NCBI GenBank assembly: GCA_013239625.1 | Contig: MU053758.1 | Coordinates: 3,581,490-3,645,489 of the forward strand | Origin: Lama guanicoe | Taxonomy: Eukaryota | Length of the DNA: 64,000 nt | Direction: 5' to 3' | Part shown: positions 59,406 through 59,626 of the stretch, in pieces | How the letters are laid out: each line of letters opens with the position of its first letter | Position numbering within the stretch: position 1 is the stretch's first letter | The notes under the pieces: model-generated | What the model was told of the DNA's origin: nothing | Databases searched by the model: none | Seen by the model: only the letters and a program-made list of their open reading frames with translations | Program-made: the position numbers and the translations under genes

Positions 59406-59626
59406 CTGCACAGGGGAAGGTGAGAAACGTCACAGAGCTGCTCCTTAAATGGCTTCTCCATGGGTTCCAAAGGAGTCACAAGCCTCCAGAGTTAAGGAGA
59501 GCCTGGCCCCAAGGGCAACCCAGTGACTTCGATCCCCCAACTTCACCTTCTCACCAGGAGGCTGAACAATACCCACCAGGTTGTGCTGGGCCAGCCAAGG
59601 GCATGTCCACAAGCTGAGATGCCCAC

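What the first reader, a model, noticed from the sequence alone, without database searches (positions are those of the whole stretch)
59575..59626. KRT33B-position keratin lacks exon 5; skipping predicts an in-frame 42-residue rod deletion
Seen: the exon-4 donor to exon-5 donor distance is 50 nt here versus 220 nt in KRT33A. The acceptor and the first 110 nt of exon 5 are gone (equivalent to 44148-44313), plus a 5-bp loss (ctgag). All other visible exons, splice sites and the poly(A) signal are intact. Inference: exons 4 and 6 join in phase 0, so skipping yields an NMD-escaping keratin missing 42 aa of coil 2. It would be length-mismatched to its type II partner and could be null or dominant-interfering. 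Use of the surviving exon-5 donor adds 50 nt and creates TG|A, an immediate stop. This is potentially relevant to camelid fibre structure.
Basis: partly seen in the sequence, partly recalled or inferred. Interest (0 to 1): 0.85.

Follow-up and report, generated by a model that had tools for sequence, protein, structure and literature searches.

The report
Exon-5 deletion in camelid KRT33B gene
In this South American camelid assembly, one of four neighbouring, near-identical hair-keratin genes has lost most of one exon, which would shorten or disable the protein, but I could not check the loss in raw reads and it may be an assembly error.

Summary
The minus-strand type I hair keratin gene at the KRT33B position (gene B, window 58282 to beyond 64000) lacks a net 170 nt that its neighbours keep. 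The loss removes the exon-5 acceptor and 110 of 126 exon-5 bases.

The junction equals the neighbour sequence minus CTCAG, minus 169 bp between two GGCCC repeats, plus a TGGC duplication. All other exons, splice sites, a TATA-like box and AATAAA are intact. Joining exon 4 to exon 6 gives an open 358-codon frame; using the leftover donor gives a stop at codon 267.

It is not a general camelid trait: two Camelus gene models keep exon 5.

The lesion sits in the core of an exon 4-6 tract that is 99-100% identical in three neighbouring genes. An alpaca gene model is broken differently in the same tract.

A peptide specific to this gene occurs in ancient Andean camelid fibres, so the gene is not dead across the group.

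Odds: real young allele 0.5, assembly artefact 0.37. Interest is modest.

The parts
57975..57980 (-). AATAAA poly(A) signal of gene B, about 300 nt after the stop codon
58282..58387 (-). Gene B exon 7 coding part (34-residue Cys-rich tail and TAG stop), AG acceptor
   Evidence: the tail is identical to alpaca model P0305
59185..59405 (-). Gene B exon 6 (221 nt, end of coil 2B), identical to exon 6 of genes A and C
   Evidence: PDB match; Pfam Filament
59406..59626 (-). Fused intron of 221 nt that would be removed if the exon-4 donor pairs with the exon-6 acceptor
59575..59592 (-). Leftover of exon 5 (last 16 nt, 59592-59577) with its GT donor (59576-59575); use of this donor gives a stop codon
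59590..59604 (-). Deletion scar: 5-bp loss between 59604 and 59603, junction of the 169-bp loss between GGCCC repeats, and the TGGC duplicate at 59593-59590
   Evidence: exact rebuild from the A/C sequence
59627..59788 (-). Gene B exon 4 (162 nt: end of coil 1B, linker and start of coil 2), 100% identical to exon 4 of gene A; donor CAG|GTGGGC
59178..59801 (-). Gene-conversion tract of B, 99-100% identical to A 43733-44526 and largely to gene C; it begins about 13 nt upstream of exon 4 and ends about 7 nt after the exon-6 donor
61044..61200 (-). Gene B exon 3 (157 nt), B-specific; the only place in this genome that encodes YQTELGLR
62164..62246 (-). Gene B exon 2 (83 nt)
63763..64000 (-). Gene B exon 1, the part inside the window; it continues to the ATG 110 nt beyond the window end
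43410..47877 (-). Gene A (KRT33A position), intact 7-exon reference copy of 404 aa; exon 5 at 44132-44257

Best explanation
Gene B is the positional KRT33B of a South American camelid. My reading is that the chromosome assembled here carries a real, young deletion allele of it.

Origin (inferred): a break in intron 4 / exon 5 was repaired by joining two GGCCC microhomologies. That left a 169-bp loss, a 4-bp templated duplicate and a nearby 5-bp loss. The scar lies in the core of a tract that gene conversion keeps nearly identical among KRT33A, KRT33B and KRT34. The large mismatch would block conversion across it, so B-private changes survive only next to it.

Consequence (inferred from sequence, not observed): exon 5 can no longer be recognised. 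The exon-4 donor pairs better with U1 than the leftover donor does, and would join the exon-6 acceptor. The resulting in-frame mRNA encodes a 358-aa keratin without the first 42 residues (six heptads) of coil 2B. A minority using the leftover donor would gain 50 nt, hit TGA at once and be degraded. A rod 42 residues shorter than its type II partner should not assemble normally. The allele is therefore most likely a null or weak allele, buffered by three neighbours with identical exon 4-6 coding sequence.
For: 1. The junction is an exact three-step derivative of the neighbour sequence, with 5-bp microhomology and a templated 4-bp duplicate. This is a usual form of end-joining scar.

2. The 5-bp loss lies only 10 nt from the main junction. 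Any word of 21 or more bases across it is unique, so a de Bruijn graph assembler could take it only from reads (inference).

3. The assembly does resolve paralogue-specific variants inside the tract. Gene C has its own synonymous exon-4 variants, while A equals B there. B has three private substitutions 38-57 nt from the junction, one of them shared with gene D.

4. There are no N runs in the 64-kb window or the 20 kb after it. The nearest N run is 46.7 kb before the window start.

5. Everything else in B is intact. Exon 3 is 100% identical to the Camelus B units by the search's own alignment. By my reading of the printed sequences, exon 2 (28 residues) is also identical and the exon-7 tail differs at 1 of 34 residues. 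This fits a recent event.

6. Camelus keeps exon 5 in 2 of 2 B-type models seen, so the loss is derived.

7. U1 duplex energies are -10.3 kcal/mol for the exon-4 donor and -8.1 for the leftover donor.

8. The skipped frame is open for 358 codons.
Against: 2. The loss is in the centre of a roughly 790-bp tract present three times at 99-100% identity. The scaffold has estimated-size N gaps elsewhere: 4 runs in 284 kb. This is the kind of place where gap closing or contig merging fails.

3. An alpaca RefSeq model of the same gene (P0305, 269 aa) jumps from mid exon 4 to the end of exon 6. No canonical splice site in the window's B sequence can give this. So another assembly is broken differently in the same tract.

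4. K34, K33B and K33A were all scored 'incomplete' in an older alpaca assembly (PMC5540548, supplement 1).

5. One pig model (P0118, 362 aa) also lacks exactly this exon. This suggests a recurrent annotation or assembly effect.

6. The B-specific peptide YQTELGLR is present in Andean camelid fibres. It shows a stable product of this gene in at least some animals.

7. Splicing, degradation of the stop-bearing mRNA and the protein's fate are all predictions.
Confidence: 0.5

Rival explanations
1. Assembly artefact. Gene B really has a normal exon 5. The middle of the triplicated, near-identical exon 4-6 tract was lost when a gap was closed, contigs were merged or the sequence was polished, leaving a ragged join.
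For: - The loss is central in a tract shared at 99-100% by A, B and C.
- The private small changes all lie within about 60 nt of the join, as ragged contig ends would.
- The scaffold has sized N gaps.
- Alpaca model P0305 shows a different loss in the same tract.
- K34, K33B and K33A were 'incomplete' in an older alpaca assembly.
- Pig model P0118 lacks the same exon.
- B is otherwise pristine, and its specific peptide is found in camelid fibre.
Against: - The junction words cannot be made from the neighbour sequence by joining at shared words of assembler length, because only 5 bp are shared.
- The extension would have had to stop 10 nt after a B-specific 5-bp loss, although all three copies agree beyond it (inference).
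- Paralogue-specific variants elsewhere in the tract are placed correctly.
- No orphan contig carries a spare exon-5 copy. Of 13 matches, only A and C are 100% identical. This last point is weak, since collapsed reads would leave no orphan.
Confidence: 0.37
2. The deletion is real and fixed in one South American lineage (the vicuna/alpaca-like type of this assembly). The 42-residue-shorter keratin is made and enters the fibre, or interferes with filament assembly, and so affects fibre properties.
For: - The in-frame product has no premature stop.
- 42 residues is exactly six heptads, so the coiled-coil register is kept (arithmetic).
- The promoter box and poly(A) signal are intact.
- A B-gene product is detectable in camelid fibre.
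- This genome encodes only the [13 protein letters not shown] form and not [11 protein letters not shown]. The paper links the D form with alpaca (PMC11812008, passages).
Against: - The fibres that gave the B peptide also gave [13 protein letters not shown], which this genome does not encode. They therefore came from another type of animal.
- No junction-spanning peptide was listed: 0 rows for two missed-cleavage forms. The search database probably lacked such a protein, so this says little.
- A rod shorter than its partner is expected to fail in assembly (general knowledge of intermediate filaments, recalled).
- No population data.
Confidence: 0.1

Closest known systems
Human KRT41P (phi-hHaA), a type I hair keratin pseudogene with working orthologues in chimpanzee and gorilla (Winter et al. 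2001, as described in PMC2064177; passages seen)
   Same: A lineage-specific lesion in one member of the same type I hair keratin cluster, while the orthologue in a sister lineage is intact.
   Different: KRT41P was verified experimentally. Here the lesion is a partial-exon deletion that leaves an open frame, it is unverified in reads, and a peptide of the gene is found in fibres of related animals.
Concerted evolution of K31/K33A/K33B/K34 (PMC5540548; passages, supplement 1)
   Same: That paper reports these four genes grouping by species rather than by gene, and lists the alpaca order K31, K34, K33B, K33A. The window shows the mechanism directly: 99-100% identical exon 4-6 tracts with mosaic borders.
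   Different: The paper scored alpaca K34, K33B and K33A only as 'incomplete' in an older assembly. It reports no exon-5 deletion.
Dominant in-frame splice changes in hair-follicle keratins, such as the intronic KRT71 variant that adds 4 residues and is linked to woolly, loose anagen hair (PMC12027166; abstract seen)
   Same: A splice-level change that keeps the reading frame of a hair-follicle keratin. This is the model for how a shortened K33b could interfere.
   Different: That variant is in a type II inner-root-sheath keratin tail, adds 4 residues, and was tested in a minigene. Here 42 rod residues would be lost and nothing has been tested.
Defective gene models of the same gene in other draft assemblies: alpaca XP_031541830.1 (P0305, 269 aa) and pig A0A8D0REF2 (P0118, 362 aa)
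   Same: Both are B-type (they carry YQTELGLR) and both lack exon 5. The pig model joins exon 4 to exon 6 exactly as predicted here.
   Different: The alpaca model also lacks 24 residues of exon 4 and 65 of exon 6. Both are computed models whose underlying DNA I could not see.

Membership tests
Type I hair keratin (intermediate filament family, Pfam PF00038) | Intermediate filament rod domain | tested here: met
   Pfam Filament matches: gene A exon 1 (1-residue difference from B exon 1), E 5e-19, profile positions 1-61; B exon 6, E 9.5e-26, profile positions 241-313. K14 and K10 coil 2B chains are the best PDB matches.
Type I hair keratin (intermediate filament family, Pfam PF00038) | Complete coil 2B of the same length as in its partners | tested here: not met
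   The 42 residues that align to 3TNU_A residues 19-58 are not encoded in B.
KRT33B positional orthologue | Gene order: KRTAP cluster, KRT33A, KRT33B, KRT34, KRT31, all on one strand | tested here: met
   KRTAP-type ORFs lie at 15597-17546 and 23030-23347. Then come A, B, C and D on the minus strand. The published alpaca order is K31, K34, K33B, K33A. Camelus fused models run D-C-B.
KRT33B positional orthologue | Sequence orthology with KRT33B of other mammals | tested here: inconclusive
   B exon 3 is 100% identical to the Camelus B units and 92-98% to proteins variously named Ha3-I, Ha3-II, Ha1, KRT33A or KRT33B. Concerted evolution blurs sequence orthology.
Unitary (lineage-specific) pseudogene | Disabling lesion verified in the organism's DNA | not testable with these tools
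Unitary (lineage-specific) pseudogene | Orthologue intact in a sister lineage | tested here: met
   Exon 5 is present in the B units of P0003 (C. dromedarius) and P0005 (C. ferus).
Unitary (lineage-specific) pseudogene | No protein product in the lineage | tested here: not met
   YQTELGLR and [10 protein letters not shown] occur in 2 fibre samples (4 rows) of PMC11812008 Table S4. Only B exon 3 encodes this peptide in this genome. The animals were probably of another type than this assembly.
Unitary (lineage-specific) pseudogene | Signs of relaxed constraint elsewhere in the gene | tested here: not met
   No stops, frameshifts or broken splice sites in exons 1-4, 6 and 7. Compared by eye with Camelus across the B-specific exons 2, 3 and 7 (114 residues), I count 1 difference.

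The most novel reading that the evidence does not exclude
The deletion is real and fixed in the fine-fibred vicuna/alpaca lineage but absent from llama/guanaco and Old World camels. Either the loss of K33b, or a six-heptad-shorter K33b built into or disturbing cortical filaments, then contributes to the distinct fibre of that lineage.
Probability: 0.1. Interest if true: 0.65.

Novelty: new member of a known kind. Interest (0 to 1): 0.3.

Why it matters
If real, this would be a recent loss or shortening of a major cortical hair keratin in a fibre-producing animal. It would come with a simple 170-bp PCR size marker that could be typed across alpaca, llama, vicuna and guanaco and tested against fibre traits. 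It would also show how a large deletion can persist inside a gene-conversion tract that otherwise keeps three genes identical.

If it is an artefact, the locus is a warning. The exon 4-6 tract of KRT33A, KRT33B and KRT34 is unreliable in draft camelid assemblies, and possibly pig ones, and in gene models built on them.

Tried and rejected
1. Read support. The look-up of sequencing runs listed 24 runs. 14 DNA runs from 4 coded organisms hold 0.89-0.97 of the sampled words. Four runs guessed to be RNA (X15-X18) hold 0.15-0.20, roughly the exon share of the query.

2. Junction reading frame in the protein collection. The 97-aa stop-to-stop frame across the junction found 91 proteins among 92 candidates, none camelid. 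0 of the 12 I read carried the junction tail, and all 12 begin with M, which the camelid frame lacks.

3. Exact look-up of two ATG-started frames across the junction and two control frames from gene A. 0 of 4 are in the collection, so the blank means nothing.

4. Metagenome contigs. The 41-base junction string gave 0 matches. Exon 6 as a protein query gave 1 unrelated locus at 30% identity. No camelid host DNA is held there.

5. Earlier notes of this scan, searched by place, sequence and words: nothing on this locus.

6. Own genome. No second B copy and no orphan contig with a spare exon 5.

7. Papers. Searches for KRT33B with alpaca, hair keratin gene loss with Vicugna pacos, gene conversion with KRT34 and the peptide YQTELGLR in main texts (0 papers) found no report of this deletion.

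8. I considered that alpaca model P0305 reflects the same deletion. I rejected this because no GT-AG, GC-AG or AT-AC pair in the window's B sequence gives its junction (sequence).

9. I considered using the absence of a B-type RefSeq protein in the newer alpaca annotation as evidence. I rejected this because Camelus also shows no B-type protein named as a RefSeq record in the clusters I listed (the two exon-5-bearing models P0003 and P0005 are fused multi-gene models), although exon 5 is intact there.

Full report
**What is in the window**

The minus strand carries two tandem seven-exon type I hair keratin genes.
- Gene A runs from the ATG at 47877 to the stop at 43410 and encodes 404 aa.
- Gene B has its stop at 58282, and its exon 1 runs past the window end.

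The window's own genome is held. The window is G000:C1600:3581490-3645489 on a 3.94-Mb scaffold. I fetched the next 20 kb.
- B exon 1 is complete with its ATG.
- Two further paralogues, C and D, follow upstream.
- Downstream of A lie two keratin-associated-protein ORFs. One has Pfam Keratin_B2_2 at E 9e-62. The other is a 106-residue Cys/Gly-rich ORF.

This order matches the published alpaca order K33A, K33B, K34, K31 (PMC5540548, supplement 1).

The animal is a South American camelid.
- By my reading of the printed sequences, A's tail (38 residues) equals that of alpaca model P0214, and B's exons 2, 3 and 7 equal those of alpaca model P0305.
- Camelus differs in both tails.

**The observation**

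It holds in the assembly. B lacks a net 170 nt relative to A, C and D. The exon-5 acceptor and 110 of 126 exon-5 bases are gone, while 16 bases and the donor remain.

rebuilds B exactly from the A/C sequence in three steps:
- loss of CTCAG;
- loss of 169 bp between two GGCCC repeats;
- a TGGC tandem duplicate at the junction.

All other B exons have AG/GT borders. Upstream there is a TATA-like box, and AATAAA lies about 300 nt after the stop.

**Predicted consequences**

- Joining exon 4 to exon 6 gives 1077 nt, 358 codons and no internal stop.
- Using the leftover donor adds 50 nt and stops at codon 267, which is 220 nt before the last junction.
- The exon-4 donor pairs better with the U1 5' end than the leftover donor does: -10.3 against -8.1 kcal/mol.
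- Exon 5 aligns to residues 19-58 of the K14 coil 2B chain 3TNU_A. Exon 6 aligns to residues 62-131.

None of these consequences has been observed.

The lesion sits in a tract that gene conversion keeps nearly identical among the paralogues.
- A and B are 198 of 198 identical on the 5' side and 412 of 415 on the 3' side. Exon 3 is only 91% identical, and the introns outside the tract do not align.
- The four-way alignment shows a mosaic. A equals C through intron 4, exon 5, intron 5 and exon 6. A equals B in exon 4, where C has its own synonymous variants.
- All B-private changes (the two losses, the duplicate and three substitutions) lie within about 60 nt of the junction. One substitution is shared with D.
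- Concerted evolution of K31, K33A, K33B and K34 is in print (PMC5540548, passages).

**Distribution across species**

With B exon 3 as query, 2 of the 120 listed proteins were 100% identical (604 passed, of 629 candidates). Both are fused multi-gene models, from Camelus dromedarius (P0003) and C. ferus (P0005). Their B units contain exon 5. So the loss arose after the split from Old World camels, or it does not exist.

Alpaca models are uninformative or odd.
- P0305 (XP_031541830.1, 269 aa) has B-type exons 1, 2, 3 and 7 but jumps from mid exon 4 to the last nine residues of exon 6. No canonical splice pair in the window's B can produce this.
- P0213 and P0214 join D-type exons 1-6 to the last exon of C or of A.
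- P0299 is an A-type model that uses a donor inside exon 6.
- The VicPac3.1 paper lists only KRT31 and KRT33A here (PMC6598621, Table 8 passage).
- The older alpaca assembly had K34, K33B and K33A 'incomplete'.

One pig model (P0118, 362 aa) is B-type and joins exon 4 to exon 6.

Together these show that the tract is hard to assemble and annotate.

**Real or artefact**

I could not lay reads. The indirect routes all came up empty without being informative.

For a real allele:
- The scar has a normal end-joining form.
- The 5-bp loss is 10 nt from the main junction, so words across it cannot arise from joining neighbour sequence at shared words.
- Paralogue-specific variants in the tract are otherwise placed correctly.
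- There is no N within 46.7 kb.

For an artefact:
- The loss is central in a three-copy tract.
- The scaffold has four sized N runs in 284 kb.
- There is a differently broken alpaca model.
- The rest of the gene is perfectly intact.

I put a real allele at 0.5 and an artefact at 0.37. The 0.5 includes the 0.1 lineage-fixed case listed among the rivals.

**Expression**

A published proteomic table of Chancay textile fibres lists YQTELGLR and [10 protein letters not shown] in two samples (PMC11812008; passages, Table S4).

In this genome that peptide is encoded only by B exon 3. The degenerate pattern has 2 matches, and the other encodes F at position 5. So the gene's product exists in some Andean camelids.

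Those two samples also gave [13 protein letters not shown], which this genome does not encode: 0 matches, and genes A to D all have D at that position. The fibres therefore came from another type of animal. The paper calls the N form 'usually absent in alpaca'.

Two missed-cleavage junction peptides had 0 rows. A database without the shortened protein could not have found them.

I did not see the supplements of the camelid marker studies that the paper cites. They may bear on species distribution.

**Verdict**

This is a correct and careful reading of the assembled sequence, with sound arithmetic. It is either a young deletion allele of one of four redundant cortical keratin genes, or a local assembly error in a known trouble spot. 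A PCR or a look at reads would decide.

Noticed in passing
window 43733-44526 and 59178-59801; G000:C1600:3653187-3654012 (gene C, outside the window): Mosaic gene conversion among three tandem hair keratin genes. Exon 4 is identical in A and B but carries five synonymous differences in C. Intron 4 through exon 6 is identical in A and C. The tract borders lie about 13 nt before exon 4 and 7 nt after the exon-6 donor. Exon 1 is also 98.5% identical between A and B.
   Followed up: partly
window 15597-17546 (-) and 16623-17277: A 650-codon ORF of the high-sulfur keratin-associated protein family (Pfam Keratin_B2_2, 13 stretches). It holds an array of 60-bp tandem repeats that are 95-98% alike.
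   Followed up: partly
window 23030-23347 (-): A 106-codon ORF with 37% cysteine and long Gly/Cys runs. It has no Pfam match. By position and make-up it looks like a KRTAP17-type gene (name recalled).
   Followed up: no
proteins P0213, P0214, P0299, P0305 (alpaca gene models): Alpaca models in this cluster look unreliable. Two 'Ha1' isoforms join KRT31-type exons 1-6 to the last exon of the KRT34-type or KRT33A-type gene 10-40 kb downstream. An A-type model uses a donor inside exon 6 and ends out of frame. The B-type model lacks 131 residues.
   Followed up: partly
protein P0118 (pig, UniProt A0A8D0REF2, 362 aa): A pig B-type keratin model joins exon 4 directly to exon 6, the same skip as predicted here. 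I could not see whether the pig DNA has a gap, a deletion or real skipping.
   Followed up: no
G000:C1600:3504839-3534849 (46.7 to 76.7 kb before the window start): Four N runs of 189, 991, 3267 and 94 bases, so the record is a scaffold with estimated gap sizes. From there, 230 kb across the whole hair keratin cluster has no N.
   Followed up: yes
window 31527-32179 and 39172-39666: Two local direct repeats: about 300 bp at 90% identity and about 240 bp at 81%. They lie in the intergenic stretch between the KRTAP genes and gene A.
   Followed up: no
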